From positions 68,758,001-68,822,000 of the forward strand of contig OX597831.1 of NCBI GenBank assembly GCA_951406725.2: DNA of 64,000 nucleotides, read 5' to 3'. Under the pieces are notes generated by a model that made no database searches, was not told where the DNA came from, and worked only from the letters and a program-made list of their open reading frames with translations. The position numbers were made by a program, and so were the translations under genes. Source of the stretch: Octopus vulgaris (Eukaryota). Shown here in pieces: positions 7,430 to 64,000 of this stretch (the first letter of the stretch is position 1; the number at the start of each line of letters is the position of its first letter).

Positions 7430-7661
7430 AGGCTGCGAGCTGGCAGAAACGCTTGCACGCCGGGTGAAATGTGTAGCCGTATTTCGTCTGTCGTTACGTT
7501 CTGAGTTCAAATTTCGCTGAGGTCCACTTTGCCTTTCATCCTTTCGGGATCTATTAAATAAGTACCAGTTACGCACTGGGGTCAATACAATCGACTTAAT
7601 CCGTTTGTCTGTCCTTGTTTGTCCCCTCTGTGTTTAGCCCCTTATGGGTAGTAAAGAAATA
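7430..7661 (+). mobile_element. SINE family B
   Basis: GGCTGCGAGCTGGCAGAAACG...GAGTTCAAAT...GGGTAGTAAAGAAATA; TSD AGTATCTG(C/A)CATGACTG at about 7399-7416 and 7662-7678. Confidence 0.9.
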
Positions 7662-11275: not shown

Positions 11276-12462
11276 ACATACATACATACATATATATATC
11301 AACAAATTGCTTTTGAATTATATGATATTTGCTAAAGGATTTTCATCAGAGTATCAAAGTGATTCAGCCAAAAAGTTGATGCAGAAATGATGATGATAAT
11401 GGTAGAAGGGTAGTAGCAATGACAATGGTTACAATATCCTTCAGTTTCAAAGTATTCTTATTTATTTGAAGAGATGTAAGAAATAAATCAGAAAATTTGT
11501 TTGTGCCAAGGTAAGTAAACCTCGTAGCTTTCTGGGTAATATAAATGAATACTGAAGTACACAATTTTCTAGATAGTAAAAGGAATTTTTAACACACATT
11601 TTTTTACCCCATTGATGATTATAAATATAAGAACAGAATCAATTACTCTGCTTTTAACTCATCTAGTCCCTAAAGAGGGTAACATTCTTTATTTGAAGAT
11701 CAAAATAAACCAGAGAATGTATTATCTTTTAGATATAGCACTCTATTGATTGTGAGGTACAAAAGTTTACTATAACTAAATAAAGAATATTGACAGGCAT
11801 AAAAATATTTTGAGACCAACACACTTGGGAATGAGAAAACATAGCAAGGAACTTTTCTGAAACCAGATATACATTGGTAGAATAAACACACAAACAAATA
11901 GGAAAACTTATTATATTTGTGCTGATTTTATTTCAATGGGGACCCAAATATAATATGGAAGATAGAAACAAGTTATAGATTAACAATATTGATTCACTTT
12001 TGAAGAAGCTCTGCATATAGGGAATCTATTTATAATTGTTTATCTTTATCCTTTGGCCATTTTAGAATTGATTAATAATGAACTATGAACAAGTCATCAG
12101 TTTTCCTCACGTTTACCTGGTTTTCTTCATCTTATCAAAACAGTCTAGTTTCTAAAATTCTAATTCTCATCATTTCATCTCTGCCAAGACATGTTGATTG
12201 GTTGGGTATGTCAATCTAATTAGATATCTAAATGTTACCTTGAACTAAGTACAGAAGTTGCAGATTGAATTATTAGTACAACCACATGCAATTTTTGCAA
12301 AATAAATTTGTGATGCGTCAATAAGCTTTCGGATTATGCAGAGTGCAGCTTTATGTCATGTAATGTAGCAGTCAGGGAGGGTCATCTACATTTCAGTATT
12401 CAGCTTATTTGTTTAGGACTGAGATTTCAACTAGTACAGAAGAGTAATTTCTTCTTTTTTTT

Positions 12463-12863
12463 TTCTTTTACTTGTTTCAGTCATTTGACTGCGGCCATGC
12501 TGGAGCACTGCCTTTAGTCGAGCAAATCGACCCTGGGACTTATTCTTTGTAAGCCTAGTACTTATTCTATCGGTCTCTTTTGGCGAACCGCTAAGTGACG
12601 GGGACGTAAACACACCAGCATCGGTTGTCAAGCAATGCTAGGGGGACAAACACAGACACACAAACATATACACACACATACATATATATATACATATATA
12701 CGATGGGCTTCTTTCAGTTTCCGTCTACCAAATCCACTCACAAGGCATTGGTCGGCCCGGAGCTATAGCAGAAGACACTTGCCCAAGATGCCATGCAGTG
12801 GGACTGAACCCGGAACCATGTGGTTGGTTAGCAAGCTACTTACCACACAGCCACTCCTGCACC
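12463..12863 (-). mobile_element. tRNA-derived SINE family A (CORE-like motif, internal microsatellite, (AGTAAAAG)n tail)
   Basis: Minus strand TGGCTGTGTGG A box, GGTTCAGTCC B box, CTTGGGCAAGTGTCTT, internal (TA)n(TG)n, 3' CAGTCAAATGACTGAAACAAGTAAAAG. About 20 copies or fragments in the window. Confidence 0.92.
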
Positions 12864-14205
12864 TAATGAGAGTTAGTAACCTGTCCCAATGTTTTGAATT
12901 GATGTGGTTCATGCTGATGTAATTATTTTGGTATGTTTTGTATCTAAAACTAATTTTAAAAATAAGATGACAGGATTGAACCTAATGCCTCGTGATTTGA
13001 ACCATAGGTAAAATAAACTCTGTTAAGTGGTATATTATAGATAATAATCTGTTGTTACAATAAGATTGGCATTTAAATAAAATGCTACATCTAAAAATAG
13101 TTGACATTACACTTTACATATATTACCTTGGTTGACAATCTGCTGGCGTATTGATAAATCAGAAAACAATTTGGTCAATTAAAACAGTAATAAGTTAAAT
13201 AAAAGCTGGAGGATGTGATGCTTGTGAAATGGTCCACTTTCACCAGCTGTAAGCATGAAATTACTTACTCACCACTTAATGAGATAAATTTCATTAAATC
13301 AATCCCTTAGTTAGATAATTATACTGTAACAATTTGAGGCATGTTCTAACTTTACTGCTAAATTTGTCTAAGAAGTGTTTAAAGTAGCTTAATTCTTCTG
13401 CAAATTGCTTCATTTGCTCCACACACCCTGGAGCATTTGATCAATATCAGTAATTTTACTGCTATTAACCACAATAATCAGATAGTAACTGCCATCTTAG
13501 CAGCAAAATTATATCTATTATACAGAAACCATGGAAATCTGGTTTAAACTGTTTGTTCCTTCAGTTGAAGATTATGGTAGAATTATGCTGTTTAGCAGGT
13601 TTTCTTTCACATAAATGTAAATTAAGAAGAGATAGTGAAAATAATAAAACAGGTCTTTAAGAGAACTTCTAATGAAGATTTTATGCTGTAAACAGTGTAA
13701 TTATCCAAGGTAGTTGTGTTGTCAGAAGAAATAAAAATGGTATTTTTTTTTTTTTCTAATGAACAAACATATATACTTTATGTGTAAAGATTAAGGAACT
13801 TGGCTGCTGTGTGTGTGAGACATGAAATAATTCCTGCTTCAACTGTTTCTCTGTGTACCAGATTTGTACCAAACTGAAGCAAGCAGGTTCTGAATTAGTG
13901 CTGCTTTTTTTCTGACGTCATTTTGAAAAAATATCATGTGTGGTCATGTTATTTCAGTGTCATGTGATGATCTGTTGCATTGCATCTGCAGACAGATGGT
14001 GATTTTGGAGATCCCTAGGCTGGACTAGATTAGAGTGATGGTAAATGCCCAATGTGTGCCTAGACAGGTCATTCATTGGTCTGGGATGCCATTATGGCCA
14101 ATATTTTGAGTGACAGTAATATATAAGAGGCTGCAATCCACTAGTAGAGATATGTATATATATATATGTATATATATGTGTATATATATGTGTGTATGTA
14201 TATAT

Positions 14206-24206: not shown

Positions 24207-24604
24207 CATCTGGTACCAGTGCCGGTGGCATATAAGAGAACCATCCGAACATGGCCATAGCCAGCACCGCATCGACTGGCCTCCGTGCTGGTGGCATGTA
24301 ACAAACACCATCTGATCGTGGCCATGCCAGCTTCGCCTGGTCTCCGTGCCGGTGGCACATAAAAAACACCATCCGAGCGTGGCCATTTGCCAGCCTCATC
24401 TGGCACCTGTGTCGGTGGCACATAAAAAGCACCCACTACAATCACGGAGTGGTTGGCGTTAGGAAGGGCATCCAGCCATAGAAACATTGCCAGATCTGAC
24501 TGGCCTGGTGCAGCCTTCGAGCTTCCCAGACCCCAGTTGAACCGTCCAACCCATGCTAGCATGGAAAGCAGATGTTAAACGATGATGATGATGATGATGA
24601 TGAT
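24207..24604 (+). mobile_element. Family D copy
   Basis: Several ~60-bp units, 3' motifs, (GAT)8 tail. Confidence 0.88.
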
Positions 24605-24847
24605 ATATATCAGTTGTTGACATCTCTTGCACTCTTAAATGCTTTAAGAGCAAGCAAAAGGGAGTGGGAGGAGGGTTGAGAGAGAGAGACTTCAGCACCA
24701 TCTCCTACAATGATATAGATACACGTTTCTCCTTTATAACTGTCAGTATGGTCTTCATGAAGCTGGACCATGGTGACTTTACCCTCCTTTAACACACACC
24801 TGTGGCATCTTGACTTTATGAGAGAAATGCTGTCATTTTCAACATCA

Positions 24848-25266
24848 GCGCAGGAGTGGCTGTGTGGTAAGTAGCTTGCTTACCAACCACATGGTTCCGG
24901 GTTCGGTCCCACTGCGTGGCATCTTGGGCAAGTGTCTTCTGCTATAGCCCCGGGCTGACCAATCCCTTGTGAGTGGATTTGGTAGGCAGAAACTGAAAGA
25001 AGCCTGTCGTATATATGTATATATTACATATATATATGTATGTGTGTGTATATGTTTGTGTGTCTGTGTTTGTCCCCCTAGCATTGCTTGACTACCGATG
25101 CTGGTGTATTTATGACCCTGTTAATTAGTGGTTCAGCAAAAGAGACCGATAGAATAAGTACTGGGCTTACAAAAGAATAAGTGCTGGGGTTGATTTGCTC
25201 GACTAAAGGCGGTGCTCCAGCATGGCCGCAGTCAAATGACTGAAACAAGTAAAAGAGTAAAAGAGT
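24848..25266 (+). mobile_element. SINE family A, full length
   Basis: Complete head, internal microsatellite and (AGTAAAAG)2 tail; ATCAGCG repeated at both ends. Confidence 0.92.
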
Positions 25267-25437
25267 ATCAGCGAGAATTCAACTGTGTTTAGCAGATGAA
25301 GCTCCTCTTAAAACTGCCTGTCCATGGTCTCCATCCATTTCTCATCTTTTGAATGGGTAGTTACCTACAAAACAGCATTATTGTTGTGCATGTCAACAGA
25401 GGTCTTTCTGCCTCCCATTCTGTTCAAGCATGTCCTC

Positions 25438-25720
25438 TGTGGAGGCACATGGCCTAGTGGTTAGAGCAGCGGACTCGTGGTCGAGGGATCGCGTGTTCGA
25501 ATCTCAGACCGGGCGATGTGTGTGTTTACGAGCGAAACACCTAAGCTCCATGTGGCTCCGGCAGAAGGTAATGGCGAACTTCTGCCACAACTTTCTCTCA
25601 CTCTTTCCTCCTGCATCTTGCAGCTCACCTGTCCCGTCCTGGTGGGGAACCTATATGCCAAGAAACCGGAAAACTGGCCCTTATGAGCCAGGCGTGGCTC
25701 GAGAAGGAACAAACAACAAA
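25438..25720 (+). mobile_element. SINE family C (tail variant 2)
   Basis: TGGCCTAGTGG A box, GTTCGAATC B box; 13-bp TSD CAAGCATGTCCTC at 25425-25437 and 25721-25733; 3' hairpin GAGCCA/TGGCTC and (AAC)-type tail. Confidence 0.92.
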
Positions 25721-26950
25721 CAAGCATGTCCTCATCCTCTATTTTATCCTTAACTCTTTTCCTTCCCTATATTAATGATGTACCTGCTGGCACATCCAGC
25801 AACACCCATTCATATGACACTACTTCATTTAGACACTACATGCCAAACTCATATTCACTCCAGGAACAGAAACTTTGAAGGAATCCTCCAATAGGGTTGG
25901 TCTGATTTTGATCAATTGCAACTAAGTACAAATGCTATTTATATCAAGAAAACACAATCAAGCGATGCCCCTCCTAACCATAAGTTGCATTCAATTAGAG
26001 CCCTTAAAATCACTCCTATTATTAGCAGGTTTCTCTTCATGAAACCAAATTTTTAACATGGCTAGAACTGCATCCTAATGACTGGCTGTATTCTTTACAG
26101 CCTGAAAATACTTTAGCTCCAAGATTTTTTAATACTTTGCAAAGCTCAGGTGAGGCTCACATTAGAAAATTACTCTCACATCTGGGAAGGTGGTGCTGCC
26201 GTGCATGTAGATATCTTAGACTACATGCCGAAAAGGACAGTCTGTCTGATTCTCTACCACTACTATAATGCTTTGTTCCTCATCCCACCTCCACTTAGGC
26301 ATTTATGTCCCACCTGGCTCTCCTCTTCTCTTCACCCTTATTGTGCACAACTTATACCATCCCATCCCATTGCATCATGGCCCCAGCTCTTCACTTGTCA
26401 CTATGCCCTATCTTCCTTCCTAGAATGTTGGTCATCTGGAACTTCTTTTCTGCTCCTATCTTTCCTCTAGCTATTGATTTACAAAGATTCTAGAGGAATA
26501 TCAATGGCATCAGTCCACATAGGGACTTTGAAGACTGTGGGTTCTGTCCCTTCCTTGAGATCAAAGTAGAAACAAGAATGAGCAAAATAGAAACAAGAAT
26601 GAGCAAAGAGACTAAGCGACCATTTTTTTATCACTGAGAAAAGCATATATAATATATATCTGCATGTATGTTGATGGAGAGAGAGAGAGAGATAAAGGAA
26701 TTGCTACTATTGTAATTGAGGTAAAAAAGGAAATTATTAAATACATTTTCCTATAATACATTTTCATCAATCTATTTGTACACTTATTTTCAAGTGAGCT
26801 ATTTTTACATAGACACATATACTTAGGTTAGGTTTGAGCTCAGAACTTGTATTTTTTATGCAGTGTTTCAAATATTTAGCCATTATGTCACATACCCTAA
26901 ACTAAAGCCAAATTTTGTAATGTGAAAACCAAACTAGGCATGAGTTATAT

Positions 26951-27166
26951 ACTTTTTTACTCTTTTACTTGTTTCAGTCAGTTGACTGAAGCCATGCTGG
27001 AGCACCACCTTTAGTCGAGCAAATCGACCCCAGGACTTATTCTTTGTAAGCCTAGTACTTATTCTATCGGTCTCTTTTGCTGAACCACTAAGTTACGGGG
27101 ATGTAAACACACCAGCATCTGCTGTCAAGCGATGTTGGGGGGACAAATACATACACACAAACATAT

Positions 27167-27225
<59 letters not shown>

Positions 27226-27391
27226 TACAACAGGCTTCTTTCATTTTCTGTCTACCAAATCCACTTACAAGGCTTTGGTCAGCCTGAGGCTATAGTAGAA
27301 GACACTTGCCCAAGATGCCACGCAGTGGGACTGAACCCAGAACCATGTGGTTGGTAAGCAAGCTACTTACCACACAGCCACTCCTACACCT
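26951..27391 (-). mobile_element. SINE family A
   Basis: Full-length match to the family pattern. Confidence 0.92.
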
Positions 27392-28649
27392 ATGGGAATA
27401 AAACTATAAAGAAGATTCTAGAAAATCAAACACACTTCATCCCTTTGTTTCACTATTATTGAAGGACCCGAAAAGGATCTTGGATGTTCCTTTTCCTGCT
27501 GTCATTAAAAGGAGAAACTGCTAATTGGCATGTTTAATCATATTAATAAGATGAATATTTAGCTAAAGTTTAAAATAATGGTAAACATATTCCGTATGTT
27601 GTCATGTATTAAGTAGGGAGAGAAAATTTTCTGCTTCTTATTGTAGGCATGCCTATGTCTGCTGGAATGTTTATGTGTGTGTGTAACAAGATATTGGAAG
27701 AAAATAGTTTCTAAAAATACATTTTAGTTTTCTCTTTTACATAATTTCACTTTTTAACACTCGAAATTACCATAATATCTACATCTCATATTTGAATTGC
27801 TTTTTCACATAGCTTTTGTGTATGGTACCTTTTTTGACATGCAATAACAAAATGCCATGTGTGTGTGTGTGTGTCTGTTTTTCTGCTCATTTATGCATTA
27901 TGTTTTGCTTAACTTTCACTTTCACAATGAATAATTAAATAATTGGCAGTGAAAAGAAAAATGTATGAGAACTTTGGGGGAAAAGTGTGTTATTTTATCT
28001 GAGAGAGTTGAGGTGTCTTGGCATAGAAAACCTGAACTTATATATACATCGATTCTATATGCTAATTGAAAGGTGCTTGGCATATATGGTTTATGTGAAA
28101 AGAGAGTGAATAAATTGAATTGACAATTTAAAAGTTTTTCTTTCTCTTTCAATATAAAAAATTCAGACATTTATAGGGATTCTTACAGAACAAAAATATT
28201 GCAAAAGTAGAAACAACAAATGCCTTGACAATTTAATGTTGTTTTGAAATAATTTTATTACTGTAACTCAATAAATGTAGATGGTATACTACATTACTCC
28301 TATTCCATCAGTTCAAATCTTGATACAAGTGGTGTATTTTGATTCCTTGAGGACATTTTTTTGACTTTATAGGTGAATTAAGAATATTCATTAAAAAGTT
28401 TGTAACATTGGCAGAAAACCACAAATTTCACTGGGTGTATTGTCAATCATATCTAGTACTTAGTTTATCACCCTGTAAGGTTAATAAACAAAATCAACTC
28501 TGGTGGGATTTGAACTTAGAATGTAATGTTTTGTAACTGAAAACCACATGACATTTTGTCTGATGCTCCAGCAATTCTGTCAAATCACCATCCTTTTAAA
28601 ATTCATTTAAAATTGTTCATTCTTTTTTATGGTGTCTATCTATTATTTT

Positions 28650-29043
28650 TTTTACCTGTTTTAGTCATTTGACTGTGGCCTTGCTGGGGCACCGCCTTGA
28701 AGAATTTTAGTCAAACTAATCAACCCCAGCACTTATTTTTCTTTTTAAACCTGCTACTTATTCTATCAGTCTCTTTTACTGAAAGGCTAAGTTGCGGGGG
28801 ACATTGAACACACCAACACCGGTTGTCAAGTACTGAAGGGCGTAAAACACAGGCACAAATACACACACTCTCTCTCACTCACACACACACATGTATATAT
28901 GATGGGCTTCTTTCAGTTTCCATCTACCAAATCTACTCACAACCCTTTGGTCAGCCTGTTGCCCAAGGTGCCACACAATGAGATTGAACCTAGAACCATG
29001 TGGTGTGAAGCAAACTTCTCACCACACAGCTATATGTGCACCT
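28650..29043 (-). mobile_element. SINE family A, diverged
   Basis: Same head and tail order, more substitutions and an internal deletion. Confidence 0.8.
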
Positions 29044-29305: not shown

Positions 29306-29575
29306 GTGGAGGCATATGGCCTAGTGGTTAAAGCAGCAGACTCGCAGTCGAGGGATCGCGGGTTCGAATCTCAGACCAGACGATGTGTGTGTTTATGAGC
29401 GAAAACACCTAAGCTCCACGCGACTCCGGCAGAAGGTAATTGTGAAACTTCTGCTAATTCTTCCGCCACAACTTTCTCTCACTTTTTCCTCGTGCATCTT
29501 GCAGCTCACCTGCGACAGACCGGTGTTCCATCCAGGTGGGGAACCTATACGCCAAGAAACCGGGAAGCAACAAAA
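29306..29575 (+). mobile_element. SINE family C (tail variant 2, 3' end shortened)
   Basis: A/B boxes as in the 25438 copy; ATATATTCATAC repeated at about 29295 and 29576 (TSD). Confidence 0.88.
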
Positions 29576-32684: not shown

Positions 32685-33102
32685 TTACTCTCTTTACTCT
32701 TTTACTTGTTTCAGTCATTTGACTGCGGCCATGCTGGAGCACCGCCTTTAGTCGAGCAAATCGATCCTGGGACTTATTCTTTGTAAGCCCAGTACTTATT
32801 CTATCGGTCTCTTTTGCCGAACCGCTAAGTGACGGGGACGTAAACACACCAGCATCAGTTATCAAGCAATGCTAGGGAGACAAACACAGACATACAAACA
32901 TACACACACATATATATATATATATATATACATATATACGACGGGCTTCTTTCAATTTCCATCTACCAAATCCACTCACAAGGCTTTGGTCGGGCCGAGG
33001 CTATAGTAGAAGATACTTGCCCAATGTGCCACGCAGTGGGACTGAACCCGGAACCATGTGGTTGGTAAGCAAGCTACTTACCACACAGCCACTCCTGCGC
33101 CT
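32685..33102 (-). mobile_element. SINE family A, full length
   Basis: Complete head to tail. Confidence 0.92.
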
Positions 33103-40523: not shown

Positions 40524-40689
40524 AGGCGCAGGAGTGGCTGTGTGGTAAGTATCTTGCTAACCAACCACATGGTTCCAGGTTCAGTCCCACTGCGTGGCAT
40601 CTTGGGCAAGTGTCTTCTGCTATAGCCCCGGGCCAACCAATGCCTTGTGAGTGAATTTGGTAGACGGAAACTGAAAGAAGCCTGTCGTA

Positions 40690-40740
<51 letters not shown>

Positions 40741-40965
40741 ATATGTTTGTGTGTCTGTGTTTGTCCCCCTAGCATTACTTGACAACCGATGCTGGCGTGT
40801 TTATGTCCCCGTCACTTAGCGGTTCGGCAAAAGAGGCCGATAGAATAAGTACAGGGCTTACAAAGAATAAGTCCCGGGGTCGATTTGCTCGACTAAAGGC
40901 GGTGCTCCAGCATGGCCACAGTCAAATGACTGAAACAAGTAAAAGAGTAAAAGAGTAAAAGAGAG
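40524..40965 (+). mobile_element. SINE family A, full length
   Basis: Complete head and (AGTAAAAG)3 tail. Confidence 0.93.
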
Positions 40966-41321
40966 TTAGTTGCAGCTGACCATAATTTTTGTCTGTTGTA
41001 GTTTGATTCAGAAAAGAATGCCAGATTTCTGGTTACCTTATATAACTGTCAGACTGACAACTTGTCACAAAAAAAAGAAATGAAAAGTGAACTAAAGCTA
41101 TTCTTATTGCAGGAATACCAAAGAGATTTTTTCTTTACTACAAGTGTCAGAAAAAAAATTTGTTTTTCCAAATTTCAACATTGGTAGAAAGGATCGTTTT
41201 GTAGCAATGTAGTCTCATATTCAATGCCACTACACTACATTTTGGATAAGTGTCTTCTATTACAGCCTTGGATTGACCAATGCCATGTAAGTGGAACAGT
41301 AAAGGAAAACTGTACAGAAGT

Positions 41322-41534
41322 TTTACTCTTTTACTCTTTTACTTGTTTCAGTCATTTGACTGTGGCCATGCTGGAGCACCGCCTTTAGTCGAGCAAATCG
41401 ACCCCAGGACTTATTCTTTGTAAGCCCAGTACTTATTCTATCAGTCTCTTTTGCCGAACTGCTAAGTGACGGGGACGTAAACACACCAGCATCGGTTGTG
41501 AAGCAATGCTAGGGGGACAAACACAGACACACAA

Positions 41535-41567
<33 letters not shown>

Positions 41568-41726
41568 CATATATACGACAGGCTTCTTTCAGTTTCCGTC
41601 TACCAAATCCACTCACAAGGCATTGGTCGGCCCAGGGCTATAGCAGAAGATGCCACGTAGTGGGACTGAACCCGAAACCATGGGGTTGGTTAGCAAGCTA
41701 CTTACCACACAGCCACTCCTGCGCCT
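41322..41726 (-). mobile_element. SINE family A
   Basis: Complete except a short deletion in the CORE-like part; abuts an older family A head at about 41185-41320. Confidence 0.92.
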
Positions 41727-41937
41727 ATATATATATATAAAAGGATAAAAATGTATATACATTATCACTAATCAACATTATTATCATATTTATATTTGCT
41801 TTTATATATTGCATGTGTCAAACAGGCCTTGTCTGGTACAGTGTCCCAATCAAATACCTCTTAAATCTGGTATTTCTCTGACTCTAGGTTTTGCTTCTAC
41901 ATTTGGAATTTCTTTAAATCCTTCACAGTCTCCACTA

Positions 41938-42160
41938 TATATTTCTTAACTACCCACAAGGGGCTAAACACAGAGGGGACAAACAAGGACAGACAAATGG
42001 ATTAAGTCGATTATATCGACCCCAGTACGTAACTGGTACTTAATTTATCGACCCTGAAAGGATGAAAGGCAAAGTCGACCTCGGCGGAATTTGAACTCGG
42101 AACGTAACAACAGACGAAATACGGCTATGCATTTTGCCCAGTGTGCTAACGTTTCCGCCA
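41938..42160 (-). mobile_element. SINE family B
   Basis: Matches the 6908 and 58705 copies. Confidence 0.9.
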
Positions 42161-42539
42161 CCTCTATAAGTACAAAGTCACCATCATATAGTGGTCCTTA
42201 TATATAGCTGATCTCAAAATAGTGTTATATTGTGTTCCTTTATGTTCTTAAATTGAAAGGGGGCTGAGATTGAACTTTCATGAGACTGAACTTTCCAGGC
42301 CCTCAATGAACTCATAACCAACTTTCACTTTACTGATTGCATCTCTTTGCATGGCTCACAAATTCTCTTCTGCATTGCATGTGTGTGCACATGTGCGTGT
42401 GTGCGTATGTATGTGTCCACGTGCCCACACGTGCATATTTATTTAAGTTTACACCTGTCTGAAAACCAGTGTTGTTTGTGTTGTGCTGCTTTATGTTCCT
42501 GAACTATTCAATAAATAGTGTTAATAAAATAAATACCAT

Positions 42540-43958
42540 AGGCGCAGGAGTGGCTGTGTGGTAAGTAGCTTGCCTACCAACCACAGGGTTCTGGGTTCAG
42601 TCCCACTGCGTGGCATCTTGGGCAAGTGTCTTCTGCTATAGCCTCGGGCCAACCAATGCCTTGTGAGTGGATTTGGTAGACGGAAACTGAAAGAAGCCTG
42701 TCGTATATATGTATATATGAACTGCTTATTCCCTAAGAATTTCTGTAAACTAGAATCGCCTCTATCCCACTTTGGTCTATCATCATCATCTTTTAACGTC
42801 CGCTTTCCATGCTAGCATGGGTTGGACGGTTCAATTGGGGTCTGGGGAGCAAGGAGGCTGCACCAGGCCCAGTCTGATCTGGCAGTGTTTCTACAGATGG
42901 ATGCCCTTCCTAATGCTAACCGCTCTGTGAGTGTAGTGGGTGCTTTTTATGTGCCACCGGCACAGGTGCCAGGCGAGGCTGGTAACGGCCATGATCAGAT
43001 GGTGCTTTTTACGTGCCACCAGCACGGAGGCCAGTCGGGGTGGCACTGGCAATGGCCATGTTCGGATGGTTCTCTTAAGTGCCACCGGCACTGGTATTAC
43101 AACTACAATTTCCGTTGATTTTGATCAATTTCGATTTCGATTTTATGACAACAACAATTAGAACATTCTTAGTGTTAGGTTTTGTATGCGGTCAAGAGAT
43201 AACAATGGTCATATATAAAGCTATTAGACATCATCAACACAATGTAGTCTACTCAAACCTGCTTGATTACTTGATAAAGACTTTTGCATACTTAAAAATA
43301 GTTACAAGTAACTTTTGACCATTATAATTCACATAATCAAAATGAAAGTAAAACGAGCTAAGGGAAATAACTCAAATGAGCCATTGGCATGATTTGGGAT
43401 AAATAAGTTGAGGGTTGATGTATTGAATGCCATGTGTAGAAAATGTTTTCCTAGTTGTAGACAACAGTTATGAAGGGAATACCAATACATTATGAAGTGT
43501 CTGTTTGGCTTTTACAGATGTAGAAAATAAATTAGGTTATAAAATTGCACTATGAATCATCAAATCAGCTATTAAGTTATTGAATCAAGCTGTAGTGACA
43601 TATTAAAAGAAAATGTTTGATTTAAATACCAAATTTGGTATTTTGCCATTTTGTTTTCAGGTACCAGTCAGAACATTTAAGAAAATATAACGGCCAAAGA
43701 ATCTCAAGCTATTAAAACTAAGAAAATAATAAATAATAAAAGCAATTAGGACAAAAATATGTATGTGTATGTATATGTTTGTGTGTCTGTGTTTGTCCCT
43801 CTAGCATTGCTTGACAACCTTAGCGGTTCGGCAAAAGAGACCGATAGAATAAGTACTGGGCTTACAAAAAATAAGTCCCGGGGTCGATTTGCTCAACTAA
43901 AGGTGGCGCTTCAGCATGGCCACAGTCAAATGACTGAAACAAGTAAAAGAGTAGAGTA
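42540..43958 (+). mobile_element. SINE family A split by a 1.04-kb insertion (5' half 42540-42717, 3' half 43761-43958)
   Basis: The head ends in the internal (TA) tract; the 3' half resumes at GTATGTGTATGTATATGTTTGTGTGTCTGTG. Confidence 0.9.
42718..43760 (+). repeat. Direct duplicate of 46326-47369 (~1.04 kb), includes a family D copy
   Basis: Both copies run TGAACTGCTTATTCCCTAAG ... GGACAAAAATAT; about six differences seen by eye. Confidence 0.95.
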
Positions 43959-45699
43959 TAAAGAAATAAGTTGTGAGCCAATATCATCAAAGTGAACCCC
44001 ACTGTTTAATAACCGAAATCAGTAACAGTATAAAAGTATCTACTTGAAGAATTAGTAAAATGCTTTTACAATGGCCTTCCCTTTCTATCAATAACTTCTT
44101 ACTGTGAAGAAGTATGTGAATTAATCGTTTACAGTTAGGCAGCCGTTATTACATTAGGCTAAAAGAAATCATTATTACATAATATTGACTAAAGTAATAG
44201 AGTAATATTCTTTGATTTGGAGTTCTAGTGATAGTGTCATCTCTAAATTATGCTAGTAATATCAACTCTAATATTGATTTCTAACACAAGACCACATGTT
44301 TTGAGGGAAGGACCTTAACCCCACTACTTCACTTTCACTATTACTTCCTCTTGTTTAAATCAATTGAGATTGTATGCAGTTCACATTTTAGTTTGACTGT
44401 CGTTGTGCTTATTATTTTACGCAATCAGAGATGAGTAGTCTGTGGGCTATGCTTTGGCTATTTACCAGAACACGTGACTGTTCCATGAGGTCTCAACTGC
44501 CTGTCTGTCCTTCTCTCTCTCTCTCACACACACATTCACTCACTCACTCACTCACTCACTCACTCACTCACTCACTCGTATAAGTTTAAAAACACATGTG
44601 TTATCTGTATTGTCTTTATGACTAACCATTATCTGATCACGCACATCTGACTTTAAAACACTAATTGACTTATGTATATATAACACTTTTAAATAGAATT
44701 TGTTTCAGCTGGTCTTGTAAATTAAGATGTTCTATATTTATGACTGAATTCTGACACAAATTTGTATCCACAATTACTTGCTGAGAAATTAGTTTTTCAT
44801 CATTCTACCCCCGAATTTAGAAGTGGTGTGTTTTGTGTTGATTATGCAGAAAACGAATACAACAAATTATATATAACCTATCTTTGTTGATATAGTTTAT
44901 TTCTTATCTTTGACTTGTTTCAGTCATTAGACTGTGGCCATACTGGATCACAGCCTTTAAGAATTTTTTAGTCAAATGAATTGACATCAGTACTTATTTT
45001 TGAAGCCTGTCATTTATTTTATCAGACTCTTTTGACAGATATATGAGTGCATCTTTTCCCTGATTTTTGGACTAATAACTAATAACATGCTTTTTGGCAA
45101 TATCTTGCCACTTATATTAGGACCTCTGTACCTTGAGGGTATGCCCTGGCACTTGCCACCTGTCTCTCTCTTCCTTTACTCTATCATCTCATCTATACTT
45201 TGATCTCTATTCCTTGTGAGTAGGCCCTGGCTCTTTGCCACCATCTCTTCCCGCTCTCACTTGCACTCTTGTGGTCTTCCACTCTCTCTCTCTGTTTCTG
45301 TCTGTCTGTCTGTCTCTCTCTCTGTCTCTCTCTCTTGCTCCTCTTCTGGTTGGGTATTCATGCATCTTCTTTACAGCAGCATACCTGTTCCTGTCCTCAT
45401 TCTTTCTCTCTCTTGCTCTTCCCACTGGCTGAGTAACCATTACAACAGCACACCTCTTCCTGTCCTCATTTTTGATCTCTCTCTCTCTCTCTCACTCTCT
45501 TTTCTCTTTCTTGCTCTTTCTCTCTCTTTCTCTCTTTCCCTCTGGCTGGATAACCATATACCTCCTCAACAGCAAGACACCTGTTTCTGTGTCTCTGTCT
45601 CTCTGACACATGCTAACCTTTCATCATCAGACACAAGATAACCTCCACTAATGCCCTTCCACTCTCAAAGGATCTTTATCTTACAAGTTAATTGGTGAC

Positions 45700-46325: not shown

Positions 46326-47369
46326 TGAACTGCTTATTCCCTAAGAATTTCTGTAAACTAGAATCGCCTCTATCCCACTTTTGGTCTATCATCATCATCT
46401 TTTAACGTCCGCTTTCCATGCTAGCATGGGTTGGACGGTTCAATTGGGGTCTGGGGAGCCAGGAGGCTGCACCAGGCCCAGTCTGATCTGGCAGTGTTTC
46501 TACAGATGGATGCCCTTCCTAATGCCAACCGCTCTGTGAGTGTAGTGGGTGCTTTTTATGTGCCACCGGCATAGGTGCCAGGCGAGGCTGGTAACGGCCA
46601 TGATCAGATGGTGCTTTTTACATGCCACCAGCACGGAGGCCAGTCGGGGTGGCACTGGCAATGGCCATGTTCGGATGGTTCTCTTAAGTGCCACCGGCAC
46701 TGGTATCACAACTACAATTTCCGTTGATTTTGATCAATTTCGATTTCGATTTTATGACAACAACAATTAGAACATTCTTAGTGTTAGGTTTTGTATGCGG
46801 TCAAGAGATAACAATGGTCATATATAAAGCTATTAGACATCATCAACACAATGTAGTCTACTCAAACCTGCTTGATTACTTGATAAAGACTTTTGCATAC
46901 TTAAAAATAGTTACAAGTAACTTTTGACCATTATAATTCACATAATCAAAATGAAAGTAAAACGAGCTAAGGGAAATAACTCAAATGAGCCATTGGCATG
47001 ATTTGGGATAAATAAGTTGAGGGTTGATGTATTGAATGCCATGTGTAGAAAATGTTTTCCTAGTTGTAGACAACAGTTATGAAGGGAATACCAATACATT
47101 ATGAAGTGTCTGTTTGGCTTTTACAGATGTAGAAAATAAATTAGGTTATAAAATTGCACTATGAATCATCAAATCAGCTATTAAGTTATTGAATCAAGCT
47201 GTAGTGACATATTAAAAGAAAATGTTTGATTTAAATACCAAATTTGGTATTTTGCCATTTTGTTTTCAGGTACCAGTCAGAACATTTAAGAAAATATAAC
47301 GGCCAAAGAATCTCAAGCTATTAAAACTAAGAAAATAATAAATAATAAAAGCAATTAGGACAAAAATAT
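46326..47369 (+). repeat. Source copy of the 1.04-kb duplication
   Basis: Continuous with unique flanks on both sides, unlike the 42718 copy. Confidence 0.9.
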
Positions 47370-50029: not shown

Positions 50030-50971
<942 letters not shown>

Positions 50972-53014
50972 TACTCTTTTACTCTTTTACTCTTTTACTT
51001 GTTTCAGCCATCCGGCTGAGGCCATGCTTGGGCACTGCCCTTGTTGCTACCTTCTCTAAGTCCAGTTTGCCGTGGCTGGCCACTGATCTAAGAGAGAGTT
51101 TGTAGCTGCTGCCCTTAGGTTACCTTCGTACCTTGCAGTGGGTTCATCTGGGATCCCGGAAAGCAGCTTGTCTAGATGTTTTTTGAAAATGTCCACATCC
51201 GCATCATGTAGATCTCTTAGTTTTCTTGGCAGTTTGTTGAACAGCTGAGGGCCCCTGAACCCCAGGCTATTACAGTATCTGCTCCTTACCCTGGATATGG
51301 AAGACGGGACTTTTGGCACCACACAGTGACGTCCTGTACGGGGATTGGAACAGCTCTCAATTCCAAAATTTGGTGCTAGTCCCTCCAGGATTTTCCATAT
51401 GTATATCACTGCATATCTCTCTCGTCTTCGTTCCAAGGAGTACAAATTGAGTTCCCTAAGCCTCTCCCAATAGTTCTTTTCTTTCATGGTGGAAATCCTC
51501 TTGGTGAAATGTCTTTGGATTGTCTCAAGCTCTGTGGTTAGTTTGACACTATGCGGTGACCACAGTTGGGAGCAGTAGTCCAGGCGGCTTAGGACAAATG
51601 TCCTCCATAGTGTCAACATGGTCTCGCAGTCTCTTTTCCGGAATGTCCTCAGGATCCAGCCAGTGAGTCGTCTGCACATTGTCGCCACCTTCGCGATGTG
51701 TGAAGAAAAAGATGCATCGTCACTCATGTCTATCCCCAGGTCCCGTATTGATTTTGATACTGGGATTTCGATCCCTCCTGGACCAGTATAGTTGTGTTGT
51801 AATGTATATGTGTTTACAGCTTGATATTGTAAGGCTTGAAATTTACCAGCATTAAATTGCATGTTGTTGTCTTCAGCCCATTTGTATATGGCATCCAGAT
51901 CTTGTTGTAAAAGGTCAGCATCAGCTGGGTTTTTGATTGCCTGTGCTACCTTTGTGTCATCAGCATAGCTAGTGAGGGATGTTGTTTGTGCTACCAAGGG
52001 CATGTCAGAGAGCGCCACCAAAAACAGCAAGGGTCCCAAGACTGTGCCCTGTGGCACCCCGCTTGCTATTGGTGTCTTTCCCGAGAGGGCTCCATTGGCT
52101 GCAACCATCTGGCTTCTGTCCTTCAGGAAGTCATGTATCCACTCACCTACTTTTCCTGTTATGCCGAGTCTGAGTAATTTGTGACATATCACTCCGTGGT
52201 CGACTTTGTCAAAGGCCTTCGCAAAGTCGAGATATACCACATCCACCTGTGAGCGATCCAGTAGTTGTTTCAGTACCCAGTCGTAGTGTTGTAACAGCTG
52301 CGTAAGGCAGCTTCTTCCTGGGCGAAAGCCATGCTGTGTGTCAGTGAGACGGTTAGTTTCTTCGAGGAACGTGATCAGTTTTTTTCTGATGATTCGTTCC
52401 ATGACCTTACTTATGTGTGACGTCAGGGAGACTGGCCTGTAGTTTTTGGCCTCTGCTCTACTCCCTCCTTTGTGGATAGGGCATATGGTGCCTTCTTTTA
52501 GCGCCCTGGGCAGTTTACCGTTAGCCAAGGAACCACTGAAGAGCTTCTTCAGTGGTCCCGCTAGGGCATGCCTGCATGTTTTTAGGAGGACTGCTGGGAA
52601 TCCATCTGGTCCAGCAGCTGAGTTTATTCTCATTTCTTCTATGGCAGATATTACATCCCTCTCTGTTATGTCTATGTGGTCGATGGTTGTTGTTTGGTTT
52701 TGGAGTGTTGTGGCATCAAAGAAAACTTCTGGGTTTGTGATTTGCATGTGCCCCAGAGGGGATGTGAACACACTTTTATACTGTTCCTTTAGTATTTCAC
52801 TTATCCTTTGGGGGTCCTCAGTTAGAGAGCCCTTTTTATCAAAGAGTGGGCCAATCTTGCAGTGTACCGAGGTGGTTTCTTTCGCAAATTTAAAGAAGGC
52901 TTTAGGGTTTGTTTTAATATTCTCTATGGCCCTGGCTTCTCTCTCTGCCCTCTCCTTCTCATAGGAAAGTTTGAGTGCAGTTTCCGTTTCAAAAAGTTTC
53001 AGGTGGAGTCCCTC

Positions 53015-53015
<1 letters not shown>
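50972..53015 (-). mobile_element. Young 5'-truncated CR1-group LINE with (AGTAAAAG)n tail
   Basis: RT ORF, then a short 3' UTR ending GGCTGAAACAAGTAAAAGAGTAAAAGAGTAAAAGAGT; embedded between two (TA)n tracts; endonuclease domain absent. Confidence 0.92.
51056..53013 (-). CDS. Reverse transcriptase ORF2 fragment (about 650 codons, uninterrupted, lacking its own start; the track's extension to 53134 is microsatellite)
   Basis: [66 protein letters not shown]. Confidence 0.9.
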
Positions 53016-53378
<363 letters not shown>

Positions 53379-54787: not shown

Positions 54788-54956
54788 CTACACTCTCGGA
54801 GTGGTTGGCGTTAGGAAGGGCATCCAGCTGTAGAAACACTGCCAGATCTGACTGGCCTGGTGCAGCCTTCGGGCTTGCCAGACCCCGGTTGAACCGTCCA
54901 ACCCTTGCTAGCATGGAAAGCGGACGTTAAACGATGATGATGATGATGATGATGAT
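54788..54956 (+). mobile_element. Short family D 3' end
   Basis: 3' motifs plus (GAT)8 tail, between (TA)n tracts. Confidence 0.88.
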
Positions 54957-55427: not shown

Positions 55428-55860
55428 GTGTATTGGATTAAAGGGGATTTAGAAACATGAGGGTTCCCCCAGCCAGCTCTCCTATGAATACTGCTAAAAG
55501 AATGCCCTAAGTGGACAGTTTTCCATTCAAACTGAAATTCCAAGGAAAATCTGTTAAGTCCAAGAATGGAGTAAATAATATAAATGTAATATTATGACTG
55601 CCATTCTTCAACTTACCATGTGTGTGTGTGTGTACACATGCGTGTGTGTGTTTGTGCTTTCATTTGTCCACCACCACTGCTTGATAACCAGTGTTGGTGT
55701 GTTTACATCTTCATAACTTAGCAGTTTGGCAAATAAGTGCCAGACTTAAAAGTAAAAAAAAGTTTTGAGGTCATTTTATTTGAATAAGATTCTTCAAGGC
55801 AGTGCTCCAGTATGGTCACAGTCTAATGACTGAAACAAGTAATAAAAAAGATAAAAGCTA

Positions 55861-56753: not shown

Positions 56754-57651
56754 AAATAATTAAGATTCAGTTAAATTAGGTACTTAAGCTGAGGCACCAA
56801 GTCTGTCCAGTATTGTCCGCACAGCTCAGGAGAGTGGCTTATCTCAAATTGACGTAATGTTTGCATTTATTGATTAAACGGAGCCGTAATGCACTAATAC
56901 CTGGATATCCTTGTTACTTATTTGCTGTACTAGGCTTACAATGAATAAGTCCCGGGGTCGATATGTTCGACTAAAGGTGGTGCTCCAGCATGGCCACAGT
57001 CAAATGACTGAAATAAATAAAAGAATATATATATACATCATCATCATCATCATCATCATTCTCATCCTCTCATCCTCATTCTCATCATATCATCATCATC
57101 GTTGTCGTCATCATCATCATCATCATCATCATTATCACTTTATGTTCCTTTTCCATGCTGGTATTGGTAGGATGATTTGACAAGATTTAATGGATTAGAG
57201 AGCCACGTCTTGCTCTAATGTCTTGCTTTCAGGATGGTTCGTATGGCTGGATGCTTTTCCTAACACCAACCCCTTTACAAAGTGTATTGGATGCATTTTT
57301 TCGTGGTACCATCACTATAGAGGCTGCATTGCTATTTGCAAAGCTAAAGAGCTTTTCTGCCCTGGCCACATTGTAACAGTTGAAATGATTTACCAAATAT
57401 GTATGTATAGAGTGTTAGAAGTGGTGTGTAGATATTGAATATTGAGAAAAGAGGGTCATCAGAATTTTGGAAAAAGATTTTTTTTATTTAGTCCTTATTT
57501 TGTTCATCTTTGAACTTGTCAAATAAAATTGTGAATGTGCAAACAGTTTTGTTCATTTATATGTCACGTGATTTTTTTGTATTGTTTGTTTAGAAGAGAA
57601 CATTGTTTTTTTTTTTGTTTTTGTTTTTTGGGGTGAGGTTGCAGGAAAGGG

Positions 57652-58345: not shown

Positions 58346-58704
58346 ATATATATACATATACACACACACACACACAATCATATGGGCTTCTTTTCGTTTG
58401 TAACTGATATGCGAGTATGCATGTGGATGCACTAGGTGCACAACAGATTACCATATTGTAGTTAGTGTCCACATTAAGCTCCTTCTCTTATGTGACTTGG
58501 TAGAGGAACATGTATAGTGCATGCACATTGTATGACTGGACAACATGGAGCAGGATGTTGGTAAATTCATTATTTTTGTATCTATTACAATCATTTTAGT
58601 AATAATAACCAAGATCAATGAATAACCACCAATTATGAATTACAACAGATAAAATATGGTCCTTGATCAATATGATTGAATGTATTTTATTAGTTGTAAT
58701 TTAT

Positions 58705-58940
58705 ATATTTCTTTACTACCCACAAGGGGCTAAACATAGAGGGGACAAACAAGGACAGACAAAGGGATTAAGTCGATTACATCGACCCCAGAACGTAACT
58801 GGTACTTATTTTATCGACCCCGAAAGGATGAAAGGCAAAGTCAACCTCAGCGGAATTTGAACCCAGAACACGTAACGGCAGACGAAATACGGCTACGCAT
58901 TTCACCCGGCGTGCTAACGATTCTGCCAGTTCGCTGCCTT
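58705..58940 (-). mobile_element. SINE family B, full length
   Basis: Complete head and tail; TSD TTATTAGTTGTAATTTATA at about 58687-58705 and 58939-58957. Confidence 0.92.
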
Positions 58941-59135
58941 ATTAGTTGTAATTTATAACTTGTGACCGTTCATTGGTCTTGATTAGCAATCACTTAAATA
59001 ATCAAAACTGATATACCTTGCTTCCTTTTATTCTCTCACTGCTGTTTGCTTAGGACTATTGCACTTGATGTGTTCTACACCTACCAACAACTGTAACTTT
59101 TGTTGATTAACAATAATAAAAAAATATATAAAGAA

Positions 59136-59323
59136 AGGTGCAGGCATGGCTTTGTGATGAGAGGCTTGATTTCCAACCACATGGTTCTGAGTTCAGTCCC
59201 ACTGCATGGCATTTTAGGCAAGTGTCTTCTACTATAGCCTTGAGATGACTATAGACTTGTGAGTGGACTTGGTAGATAGAAGCTGAAAGAAACCCATTGT
59301 ATACATATATAAATATATGTGTA

Positions 59324-59368
<45 letters not shown>

Positions 59369-59572
59369 CTTTGTGCCTGTGTTTGTCCTCCACCACCACT
59401 TAACCACTGGTGTTGGTGTGTTTATGGCCCCATAACTTAGTAGTTTAGCAAAAGAAACTGATAGAATGAGTGCCAGACTTTAAAAATAAGCACTGGGGTT
59501 AATTCATTTGACTAAAACTTCTTCAAGGCAGTGCTCCAGCATGGCCACAGTCTAATAACAGAAAAGTAAAAA
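59136..59572 (+). mobile_element. SINE family A, older subfamily
   Basis: Same modular order, diverged. Confidence 0.85.
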
Positions 59573-59665
59573 ATATATATACTCATGATCTGAGTTCTAT
59601 ATTTCTGTTCACATCACCAAACCTATATATAATATACATACATATATATATTATATTTTATGACG

Positions 59666-60338: not shown

Positions 60339-60725
60339 AAATTTTATCCCTAAATGTGGTTTGGAATTTAACTGTCCTCTCTAGCGTCCAAGCAGTCCTA
60401 TGATAGCTATCTCTTATGTGCTTAAATGTACATTGTATTTATTATCATCATCATTATGTATATATATATATATATATGTATGTATTATGTGTGTATATGT
60501 TTGTGTGTCTGTGTTTGTGCCCCACCCCCAAGAACATCACTTGACAACCGATGCTGGTGTGTTTATGTCCCCGTAACTTTGTGGTTCGGCAAAAGAGACC
60601 AATAGAATAAGTACTTGGCTTACAAAGAATAAGTTTTTAAGTACTGGGGTTGATTTGCTTGACTAAAAAATATGGTGCTGCAGCATGTCCACAGTCAAAT
60701 GACTGAAACAATTAAAAGTAAATGA

Positions 60726-60763
<38 letters not shown>

Positions 60764-61146
60764 TCATTTACTTTTAATTGTTTCAGTCATTTGACTGCGG
60801 ACATGCTGCAGCACCATATTTTTTAGTCAAGCAAATCAACCCCAGTACTTAAAAACTTATTCTTTGTAAGCCAAGTACTTATTCTATTGGTCTCTTTTGC
60901 CGAACCACAAAGTTACGGGGACATAAACACACCAGCATCGGTTGTCAAGTGATGTTCTTGGGGGTGGGGCACAAACACAGACACACAAACATATACACAC
61001 ATAATACATACATATATATATATATATATACATAATGATGATGATAATAAATACAATGTACATTTAAGCACATAAGAGATAGCTATCATAGGACTGCTTG
61101 GACGCTAGAGAGGACAGTTAAATTCCAAACCACATTTAGGGATAAA

Positions 61147-61150
<4 letters not shown>
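60339..61150. repeat. 812-bp spacerless palindrome centred on (TA)18
   Basis: 60339-60726 is the reverse complement of 60763-61150 (one mismatch seen); each arm holds a SINE A 3' half plus a pLTR-like segment. Confidence 0.93.
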
Positions 61151-61180
<30 letters not shown>

Positions 61181-61182
<2 letters not shown>

Positions 61183-61572
61183 TTCTTTTATTTGTTTCTG
61201 TCATTTGACTGTGGCCATGCTGGAGCACTGCCTTAAAAGGTTTTGAGTCAAAGAAATCAACCTCAGGACTTCTTTGTAAGCCTAATACTTATTCTATCAG
61301 TTTGTTTTTTTTGCTGAACCACTAAGTTAAACACACAAGCATCAGTTGCTGAGCAATTGTGGGAGGACAACACAAATACAGAGACACGCACACATAAATA
61401 CACACACATATTCAATGGGCTTCTCTCAGTTTCTGTCTACCAAATTCATTCACAAGGCTTTGGTCAGCCCGAGGCTATAGTAAAAGACACTTGCCCAAGA
61501 TGTTATGCAGTGGGACTGAACTTGGAACCATGTGGTTGGGAAGCAAGCTTATTGCACAGCCATTCCTGCACC
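61181..61572 (-). mobile_element. SINE family A, diverged
   Basis: Head-to-tail match. Confidence 0.88.
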
Positions 61573-62143
61573 CCACACATAATAATCAAGGAGATTGCAG
61601 TCTGGAGAATTAGGTAGTCAGATATTGGGTGTGATGTGGTCACAGAAATTGTGTAACAGCCATAACTGGGCTCTCCTGCTTGTGTGGAATGGTGCAGAGT
61701 CCTGTGGCCAGATGCAGGGTCTTTCAGCAGCCATCCTTTTGACCTGTAGCAGCACTGCCTCTTACAGGCCCTTGATGTTGACCTTTGTGTTGTGTTTGAG
61801 GCCATGTGGGAAGATGAGCATAATGTCACCATCACTAATGATCACTCCAAACACCATGATGTTGACTGGATGTTTGATTTTTATCACTCTTGGTACATGT
61901 CCTCAGATTGCACTGTCTTCAGATTGACACCCAAACACTCTGAAACTTTCGTATTGGAGCTTCCTTTGCAAATGCCAAACACTACATGTCATTTCCAAAT
62001 TTCTTGCCGAATGAATTGTGTCATGGCGCTGCTTTTCTCATAGACAATGCCCAACTGACCTACTATACTGTGTAGTCAGCAAAATCAAAAACAAACTATG
62101 TGCATGCACAAAATAAAAAATATAAATGGTGACAATTTACCCA
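61566..62143 (-). mobile_element. Internally deleted DD37D (maT-type) Tc1/mariner relic
   Basis: Minus strand QD-SAPFHTSRRAQLWLLHNFCDHITPNI*LPNSPDCNLL-DYYVW: exactly 37 residues between the 2nd and 3rd catalytic Asp. 5' region matches 63120-63362. Confidence 0.85.
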
Positions 62144-63468: not shown

Positions 63469-63844
63469 TATATATATATGTATACATATTAAAGTTAACA
63501 GTAGGGAGAAGCTCGATAATCATCATGTAGAAAGAGATTTTTTTTCTTTTGCTGACCAATTTTAAATCTACAAATATACTTAGAAGTGAGCAAAGGGTTG
63601 TTATACTGTCCTTATGCAATATTTTCTTTTTTAAATACACACAAATATTTTAAATATCTCCTACTGAGCTGGTTCAGGAAAAGTGTCTAAGGTCAGCAAG
63701 CAGTGGTGTTGTAATGCTTAAATACCAAGCCCATTCTCTATTGAATATCTAAGTGAGACCATTTCAGTTGTCCTTGACTGTTATTTATTTATGTTAATGA
63801 ATATTCAATGACATTATCCTGAGTAATATCTTCTAACATCTCTC

Positions 63845-64000
63845 TCTTTTACTCTTTTACTTGTTTCAGTCATTTGACTGCGGCCATGCTGGAGCACCGC
63901 CTTTAGTCGAGCAAATCAACCCCAGGACTTATTCATTGTAAGCCTAGTACTTATTCTATCGGGCTCCTTTTACCGAACCGCTAAGTTATGGGGACGTAAA
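63845..64000 (-). mobile_element. SINE family A 3' part, cut by the window edge
   Basis: (CTTTTACT)n tail and family A 3' motifs. Confidence 0.9.

What the first reader, a model, noticed from the sequence alone, without database searches (positions are those of the whole stretch)
50972..51060. The CR1-group LINE and the abundant SINE A share a 3' end with a compensatory hairpin change
Seen: LINE 3' end GGCAGTGCCCAAGCATGGCCT-CAGCC-GGAT-GGCTG-AAACAAGTAAAAGAGTAAAAG versus SINE A GGCGGTGCTCCAGCATGGCCG-CAGTC-AAAT-GACTG-AAACAAGTAAAAGAGTAAAAG. The stem has a C-G to T-A compensatory swap and the tail repeat is identical. Known: CR1/L2-group RTs recognise a 3' stem-loop shared with partner SINEs. Inference: this LINE lineage drives the ~20 SINE A copies here, and its uninterrupted ~650-codon ORF suggests recent activity.
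Basis: partly seen in the sequence, partly recalled or inferred. Interest (0 to 1): 0.7.

Follow-up and report, generated by a model that had tools for sequence, protein, structure and literature searches.

The report
Octopus SINE shares CR1 retrotransposon tail
An abundant short repeat in this probably-octopus genome ends in nearly the same 50-letter tail, predicted to fold into two hairpins, as a young family of long jumping genes, so it likely borrows that lineage's copying enzyme: a new example of a well-known kind of partnership.

Summary
A 5'-truncated LINE with a CR1-like reverse transcriptase (minus strand, about 53012-50972) shares its last 50 nt plus an 8-nt tail repeat with SINE A (42 of 50 identical). 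The block folds into two hairpins, not one. All 8 differences lie in unpaired positions or in the one compensatory pair. The chance-fusion alternative is refuted: in 4 of 4 public runs a family contig runs from the LINE body through both hairpins, and one 4098-nt contig carries the tail. Lineage-level partnership is likely. That this very family made the SINE copies is not shown. Its second loop differs from the SINE's at 2 of 4 bases, and loops set specificity in tested L2 LINEs. The copy is 0.4% from its family majority, against 2.6-24% for nine SINE copies, and sister families exist whose ends I could not see. The copy lacks the endonuclease. SINE-CR1 tail sharing with compensatory changes is published for bivalves; nine searches found no octopus pair. 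Earlier scan notes report Tx1-SINE tail sharing in this genome, and none on this pair. Verdict: new member of a known kind.

The parts
51056..53012 (-). 5'-truncated LINE ORF (linker end, reverse transcriptase, C-terminal region), open to TAG at 51058-51056; no endonuclease, no start codon
   Evidence: RVT_1 E 1.3e-30; best hits 68-69% identical, about 1000 aa with endonuclease; nearest named hit from Argonauta hians, 59%
51040..51055 (-). LINE-specific part of the 3' UTR (16 nt), not found in SINE A
51020..51039 (-). Hairpin H1 (3 bp, 1x1 internal mismatch, 4 bp, 4-nt loop), shared with SINE A
51005..51018 (-). Hairpin H2 (5 bp, 4-nt loop); C-G pair at 51015/51008 where SINE A has T-A; loop GGAT where SINE A has AAAT
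50972..51004 (-). AAACAA spacer and three 8-nt GTAAAAGA units ending in GTA; same unit as in the young SINE A copies
50033..50971 (.). (TA)n microsatellite at the LINE 3' junction; a TA-rich run also flanks the 5' junction (53013-53370), so a target-site duplication cannot be read
12456..12864 (-). SINE A, young full-length copy
24846..25270 (+). SINE A, young copy with a candidate 7-nt target-site duplication
26950..27391 (-). SINE A, young full-length copy
32685..33102 (-). SINE A, young full-length copy
40524..40965 (+). SINE A, young full-length copy (reference)
41321..41726 (-). SINE A, young full-length copy with a 13-nt deletion
42540..43958 (+). SINE A copy interrupted by about 1 kb of other DNA
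63840..64000 (-). SINE A 3' part, cut by the window end
28643..29043 (-). SINE A, older type (20% from the young majority); H1 loop CCCA
59136..59575 (+). SINE A, older type (24%)
61180..61573 (-). SINE A, older type (16%)
44900..45034 (-). SINE A older 3' end; further 3' ends at 55642-55857 (+), 56927-57025 (+), 60499-60722 (+) and 60767-60990 (-)

Best explanation
SINE A and this young CR1-like LINE family end in nearly the same 50-nt block plus an 8-nt repeat, predicted to fold into two hairpins, and SINE A is likely copied in trans by reverse transcriptases of this LINE lineage, with most existing copies probably made by older or sister families rather than by this one. Inferred mechanism, by analogy with L2 LINEs: SINE RNA (Pol III, from A- and B-box-like motifs read by eye in its head) is bound through the tail stems and loop by the LINE protein. 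The endonuclease nicks the target, and reverse transcription is primed on the short 3' repeat. The window's LINE copy is a recent, 5'-truncated product of a longer family member and cannot copy itself.
For: Shown: 42 of 50 identical for the window copy, 44 of 50 for the read majority. No stem pair is broken. If 6 changes are placed at random in the 35-nt block, no pair is broken in 2-7% of trials and all Watson-Crick pairs stay Watson-Crick in 0.2-0.4%; over 50 nt the figures are 8-16% and 2-3%. Family contigs bridge the body-tail junction in 4 of 4 runs from 3 coded organisms, reach 266-2067 nt further 5' than the window copy, and gain depth towards the 3' end in 2 of 4 runs. The LINE tail matches only SINE A among the window's repeats; the two RTE-type LINE ends and three other short-repeat families end differently. 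7 of 8 young SINE copies carry the LINE's 8-nt unit. No variant of 2% or more lies in the SINE's H2 stem in 2 of 2 runs. Precedent: bivalve SINE-LINE homologies are 35-61 bp at 72-95% (PMC11481361).
Against: No activity test. The H2 loop differs at 2 of 4 positions, and loop swaps nearly abolished retrotransposition of zebrafish L2 LINEs (PMC4176376). Only one covarying pair exists, and it is not significant in the alignment. The LINE fold alone is modest (z -1.3 for 89 nt, -2.3 for 74 nt). The structure was derived from the same sequences that were tested against it. I could not see the 3' ends of sister families. Earlier scan notes report Tx1 LINEs sharing a tail with an abundant SINE of this genome, and I could not check whether that SINE is SINE A.
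Confidence: 0.62

Rival explanations
1. This very family is the direct, current driver of SINE A; its protein tolerates the SINE's different H2 loop.
For: The 8-nt tail unit is identical to that of the young SINE copies. The family is very young. No second LINE appears among the 12 loose-end rows shown of 218. 4544 recently active SINE insertions and 13 active CR1 families are reported for O. vulgaris (PMC13282606), so both classes are active in at least one octopus.
Against: Loop mismatch. SINE copies are 2.6-8.2% (6 young) and 16-24% (3 old) from the young majority, against 0.4% for the LINE copy. Sister-family contigs reach higher depth than this family at conserved patches (for example 1842 of 2035 at 51872 in X1). 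The summed SINE depth of about 1e6 would hide any LINE.
Confidence: 0.2
2. The direction is reversed: the SINE's tail came from, and is served by, another LINE clade (for example Tx1), and this CR1-like family captured it by template switching.
For: The LINE-specific 3' UTR is only 16 nt. The SINE is far more abundant and older. Earlier scan notes describe Tx1 and ORF1-only elements sharing a hairpin tail with an abundant SINE in this genome (not tested here).
Against: A recent capture would be nearly identical to the SINE, yet 6 structure-respecting differences separate them. A second SINE family in the window has a different tail and could be the one in those notes (not tested). Even if captured, the family has spread with this tail, so its protein accepts the fold.
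Confidence: 0.15
3. The junction is a one-off fusion of a truncated LINE with a decayed SINE fragment.
For: Only one LINE copy lies in the window, inside a (TA)n run with no readable target-site duplication.
Against: High-depth family contigs from 4 of 4 runs carry the same junction and the same H2, and extend beyond the window copy's 5' end. Two of the window copy's differences from the SINE are private to this copy.
Confidence: 0.02

Closest known systems
BivaV-SINE2 and BivaCORE-SINE1 with CR1-14_CGi (Nishihara et al. 2016, PMC4824008; passages and supplement parts 1-2 of 4 read)
   Same: Mollusc tRNA-SINEs sharing a 3' tail with a CR1-type LINE, with stem-loops and compensatory changes argued as support.
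   Different: Bivalves, not cephalopods. The bivalve SINE tails I saw (BivaMeta-SINE1, BivaMD-SINE1, BivaV-SINE1) do not resemble this tail by eye; I did not see the BivaV-SINE2, BivaCORE-SINE1 or CR1-14_CGi tails.
Bivalve SINE-LINE partnerships with CR1, CR1-Zenon, L2 and Nimb (Martelossi et al. 2024, PMC11481361; passages)
   Same: Homology of 35-61 bp at 72-95%; inference from sequence and age profiles only.
   Different: The word 'cephalopod' does not occur in its main text. It reassigns the earlier CR1 partners to CR1-Zenon, which is reported as rare or absent in cephalopods (PMC10294476).
UnaSINE/UnaL2 and ZfL2-1/ZfL2-2 stringent LINEs (Hayashi et al. 2014, PMC4176376; passages)
   Same: 3' stem-loop plus short terminal repeat; source of the mechanism assumed here.
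   Different: L2 clade and experimentally tested. There the loop sets specificity, whereas here the LINE and SINE H2 loops differ.
Octopus SINEs of Ohshima and Okada 1994 (paper not held; title seen in reference lists; the names OR1 and OR2 seen, the name OK recalled)
   Same: SINE A may be one of these three tRNA-derived octopus families (recalled, not compared).
   Different: Identity was not tested. No partner LINE for them appears in the passages read, and Ohshima's 2013 review with its pair table holds no 'octopus', 'squid' or 'mollus-' (PMC3747384).

Membership tests
Stringent SINE-LINE partner pair | SINE 3' end homologous to the 3' end of a LINE family, not of one copy | tested here: met
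   42-44 of 50 nt plus repeat; family contigs in 4 of 4 runs
Stringent SINE-LINE partner pair | Conserved 3' stem-loop in both partners | tested here: met
   Same predicted two-hairpin fold; no pair broken, chance 0.2-16% depending on the null model; prediction only
Stringent SINE-LINE partner pair | Covariation beyond chance across many sequences | tested here: inconclusive
   One double change; 92 of 500 shuffles reach it
Stringent SINE-LINE partner pair | Same loop sequence (the specificity element in L2 LINEs) | tested here: not met
   H2 loop differs at 2 of 4 bases; H1 loop at 1 of 4 in the read majority
Stringent SINE-LINE partner pair | Shared terminal short repeat | tested here: met
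   8-nt unit in the LINE and in 7 of 8 young SINE copies
Stringent SINE-LINE partner pair | Overlapping age profiles | tested here: inconclusive
   One LINE copy at 0.4%; nine SINE copies at 2.6-24%; no genome held
Stringent SINE-LINE partner pair | Trans-mobilisation by the LINE protein | not testable with these tools
   Needs a cell or in vitro assay
CR1 clade of LINEs | Non-LTR reverse transcriptase with an N-terminal AP endonuclease in full-length members | tested here: met
   RVT_1; the three closest relatives and most of the 120 listed carry PF14529 and/or PF03372; best PDB match human L1 ORF2p
CR1 clade of LINEs | Placement within CR1 (not CR1-Zenon, L2, Crack or Rex1) on an RT tree with named references | not testable with these tools
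   No named reference set could be fetched; the motifs QHGFxx[17 protein letters not shown] and [10 protein letters not shown] look like CR1 from recall only
tRNA-derived SINE (SINE2) | tRNA-related head with A and B boxes | tested here: inconclusive
   A- and B-box-like motifs read by eye; ARAGORN found no tRNA and Rfam gave no tRNA match on three copies
tRNA-derived SINE (SINE2) | Short, non-coding, dispersed, common 5' end, simple-repeat tail | tested here: met
   About 400 nt; 9 full-length copies aligned with a common start

The most novel reading that the evidence does not exclude
This CR1-type lineage is the so-far unnamed engine behind one of the SINE families that swelled octopus genomes. 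Unlike the tested L2 enzymes, it would read two stems and the 8-nt repeat while tolerating a different loop. That would let one SINE ride a whole set of sister families and follow them through a change of repeat unit (older copies seem to use a 7-nt unit). It may also be the missing partner of the ORF1-only element noted elsewhere in this genome.
Probability: 0.2. Interest if true: 0.55.

Novelty: new member of a known kind. Interest (0 to 1): 0.32.

Why it matters
SINEs make up 11.6% of the O. vulgaris genome and are an octopus-specific expansion (PMC13282606, PMC8967140), yet the papers I could read name no partner LINE. A defined 50-nt tail and a young, apparently full-length candidate family make the question of what copied these SINEs directly testable. 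The natural loop mismatch is also a ready test of whether CR1-type enzymes follow the loop-specificity rule found for L2. The principle itself is textbook and already shown in bivalves.

Tried and rejected
No genome is held for the window, so no copy census was possible. The metagenome scan gave 1 distant locus (34%, no 3' end). The tail pattern gave 0 hits in viral contigs and 1 hit in a bacterial MAG, not examined and taken as chance. ARAGORN and Rfam found no tRNA in the SINE head. ESM Atlas and PDB gave generic RT hits and no clade name. Laying contigs on a SINE tail to find a second LINE partner showed only older SINE forms in the 12 of 218 loose-end rows displayed; this is not evidence of absence. 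A shared preference for (TA)n targets was considered. The script flagged 6 of 15 SINE 3' ends plus the LINE, one of the six about 35 nt away, against about 8% background. None of the 8 young copies was flagged, so the idea is not supported. The 'all Watson-Crick' column mis-scored a G-U pair and was replaced. Look-ups of earlier scan notes by sequence and by words found nothing on this pair. The SINEBase supplement and Ohshima and Okada 1994 could not be read; both, and Repbase or Dfam, may already name this SINE or its partner.

Full report
Setting. No genome is held for this window. The host is probably an octopod: the nearest named relative of the LINE protein is from Argonauta hians (59% identity), and earlier scan notes call the genome octopus-like (unchecked).

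Observation. On the minus strand an ORF runs from a (TA)n tract near 53012 to TAG at 51058-51056. It holds a reverse transcriptase domain (RVT_1, E 1.3e-30) and no endonuclease, whereas its three closest relatives (68-69% identical) are about 1000 aa and have one. After 16 LINE-specific bases come 50 nt shared with SINE A, three 8-nt repeats in all, and another (TA)n tract. The match is far beyond chance: E 5.7e-18 against one SINE copy, and 18 matches of the tail 15-mer against 0.19 expected. SINE A is represented by 24 pieces, counted by hand, and 16 of them have a recognisable 3' end.

Structure. Both RNAs are predicted to fold into two adjacent hairpins, H1 (51039-51020) and H2 (51018-51005). 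The window copy differs from the majority of eight young SINE tails at 8 of 50 positions: six unpaired, and two forming the C-G/T-A swap in H2. Random placement of 6 changes leaves all pairs intact in 2-7% of trials over the 35-nt block (8-16% over 50 nt). It keeps every Watson-Crick pair Watson-Crick in 0.2-0.4% (2-3% over 50 nt). For 8 changes over 35 nt the figures are 0.6-3% and 0.03-0.14%. This is suggestive, not strong. The structure came from these same sequences, there is only one double change, and the 17-row alignment shows no significant covariation (92 of 500 shuffles). The LINE tail's folding z-score is -1.3 for 89 nt and -2.3 for 74 nt.

Seventeen of 24 listed runs, from three coded organisms, hold about 90% of the LINE's sampled words. 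I laid 4 of these 17. In all four, one contig runs from the LINE body across the junction with at least 33 letters on the tail side, ending at 51007, 50991, 50982 and 51006. Contigs also extend 896, 266, 2067 and 1250 nt beyond the window copy's 5' end. I did not see those upstream letters, but one record of 4098 nt spans everything, a size in line with mollusc CR1 consensus lengths (mean 3791 bp; PMC10294476). Depth rises towards the 3' end in two runs (70-96-179 and 55-68-105) and is flat in two. The family contigs differ from the window at eight places. I assigned these to the contigs by matching each record's count of other letters and its distance to the end. H2 is not among them. Two of them (51029, 51036) make the family closer to the SINE, 44 of 50. 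The tail is therefore a family feature, and the window copy is a recent truncated insertion, 0.4% from the majority; assembly errors or species differences may be part of that figure.

Is this family the driver? Three results argue for caution. First, the H2 loop is GGAU in the LINE and AAAU in the young SINE. In zebrafish L2 LINEs, loop replacement strongly reduced or abolished retrotransposition while stem exchange was tolerated (PMC4176376, passages). Second, six young SINE copies are 2.6-8.2% from their own majority, an underestimate because the majority was built from them, and three older ones are 16-24%; all are older than the LINE copy. Third, sister families are present in the same runs. 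Partial matches at conserved patches exceed this family's depth (for example 1842 of 2035 at 51872 in X1), and some loose ends, translated by eye, resemble P0001/P0005-type proteins. O. vulgaris has 169 CR1 families, 13 of them recently active (PMC13282606). When contigs of 2 runs were laid on a SINE tail, no variant of 2% or more fell in the H2 stem. The variants in the block were C>T or G>A changes in H1 (three keep a G-U pair, one is at the unpaired position), or changes in the loops and linker. The loose ends shown (12 of 218) were older SINE forms. With summed SINE depth near 1e6, which is not a copy number, a LINE would not be visible there. In favour of a close link, 7 of 8 young SINE copies carry the LINE's 8-nt unit, while two older copies and the commonest loose end point to a 7-nt unit. 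The LINE tail also matches none of the other short-repeat families or RTE-type LINE ends in the window.

Mechanism. Shown: the shared sequence, its presence across the family, and the family's youth. Predicted: the two hairpins. Inferred from L2 work: binding of the tail by the region between endonuclease and RT, and target-primed reverse transcription from the repeat. Target-site duplications are short or unreadable; one copy has a candidate 7-mer. I put 0.62 on lineage-level partnership with older or sister families making most copies, 0.2 on this family as the direct driver, 0.15 on capture of a tail that belongs to another clade, and 0.02 on a one-off fusion.

Clade and names. CR1 membership rests on recalled motifs; no named reference set was available, and Atlas and PDB hits were generic. 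SINE A may be one of the three octopus SINEs of Ohshima and Okada 1994, which was not held. Its tRNA origin is read by eye only (negative).

Literature. SINE-CR1 tail sharing with stem-loops and compensatory changes is published for bivalves (PMC4824008, passages and supplement parts 1-2 of 4; PMC4758252, passages; PMC11481361, passages). CR1 and RTE dominate Ohshima's 2013 pair table (PMC3747384, passages). Nine searches found no octopus pair. Neither did passages of PMC13282606 (part 1 of 3, passages and a supplement search), PMC8967140, PMC9115989, PMC5804259, PMC5786205, PMC3531059, PMC9223172 and PMC10294476. Repbase, Dfam, the SINEBase supplement and subscription papers were not seen and may already record it. 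Earlier scan notes on this genome report Tx1 and ORF1-only elements sharing tails with an abundant SINE. They give no sequence, so I could not tell whether they concern SINE A or the second SINE family seen here.

Verdict. The feature is real and well supported as a new member of a known kind; the direct driver is open. Interest 0.32.

Noticed in passing
run X4, record 32, on window 52670-52911: A 247-nt contig (depth 4.3) differs at 32 places. The rows shown are all T>C on the + strand, which is A>G on the LINE sense strand: the pattern of A-to-I hyper-editing of a sense transcript. One low-depth contig only.
   Followed up: no
window 14768-18160 (+): RTE-type LINE (clade by recalled motifs) with endonuclease and RT in broken frames, ending in a short ATT repeat; its tail is unrelated to SINE A.
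   Followed up: partly
window 7429-7669, 6900-7130, 41936-42164, 58702-58941: A second SINE family shares a short internal segment with SINE A just upstream of the tail but ends differently, which suggests tail exchange.
   Followed up: partly
window 5304-5665, 5925-6397, 24209-24580, 54788-54932; 25439-25672, 29306-29566: Two more dispersed short-repeat families with their own tails, one ending in (GAT)n.
   Followed up: no
window 60339-61149: Inverted duplication about 800 nt long centred on a (TA)n run; it duplicates a SINE A 3' half.
   Followed up: no
window 42700-43757 and 46326-47369: About 1 kb inside the SINE A copy at 42540 appears to be repeated at 46326-47369.
   Followed up: no
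5' flanks of SINE A copies at 27391, 29043, 33102, 41726, 42540: ATA directly precedes the SINE's first G in 5 of 9 copies whose start I located (a tenth is slightly truncated). This may be a target preference or part of the element.
   Followed up: no
runs X1 and X4 on window 40896-40954: Contigs that return from the tail repeat to the start of the hairpin block ('goes back 59'), suggesting tandem duplications of the shared tail alone.
   Followed up: no
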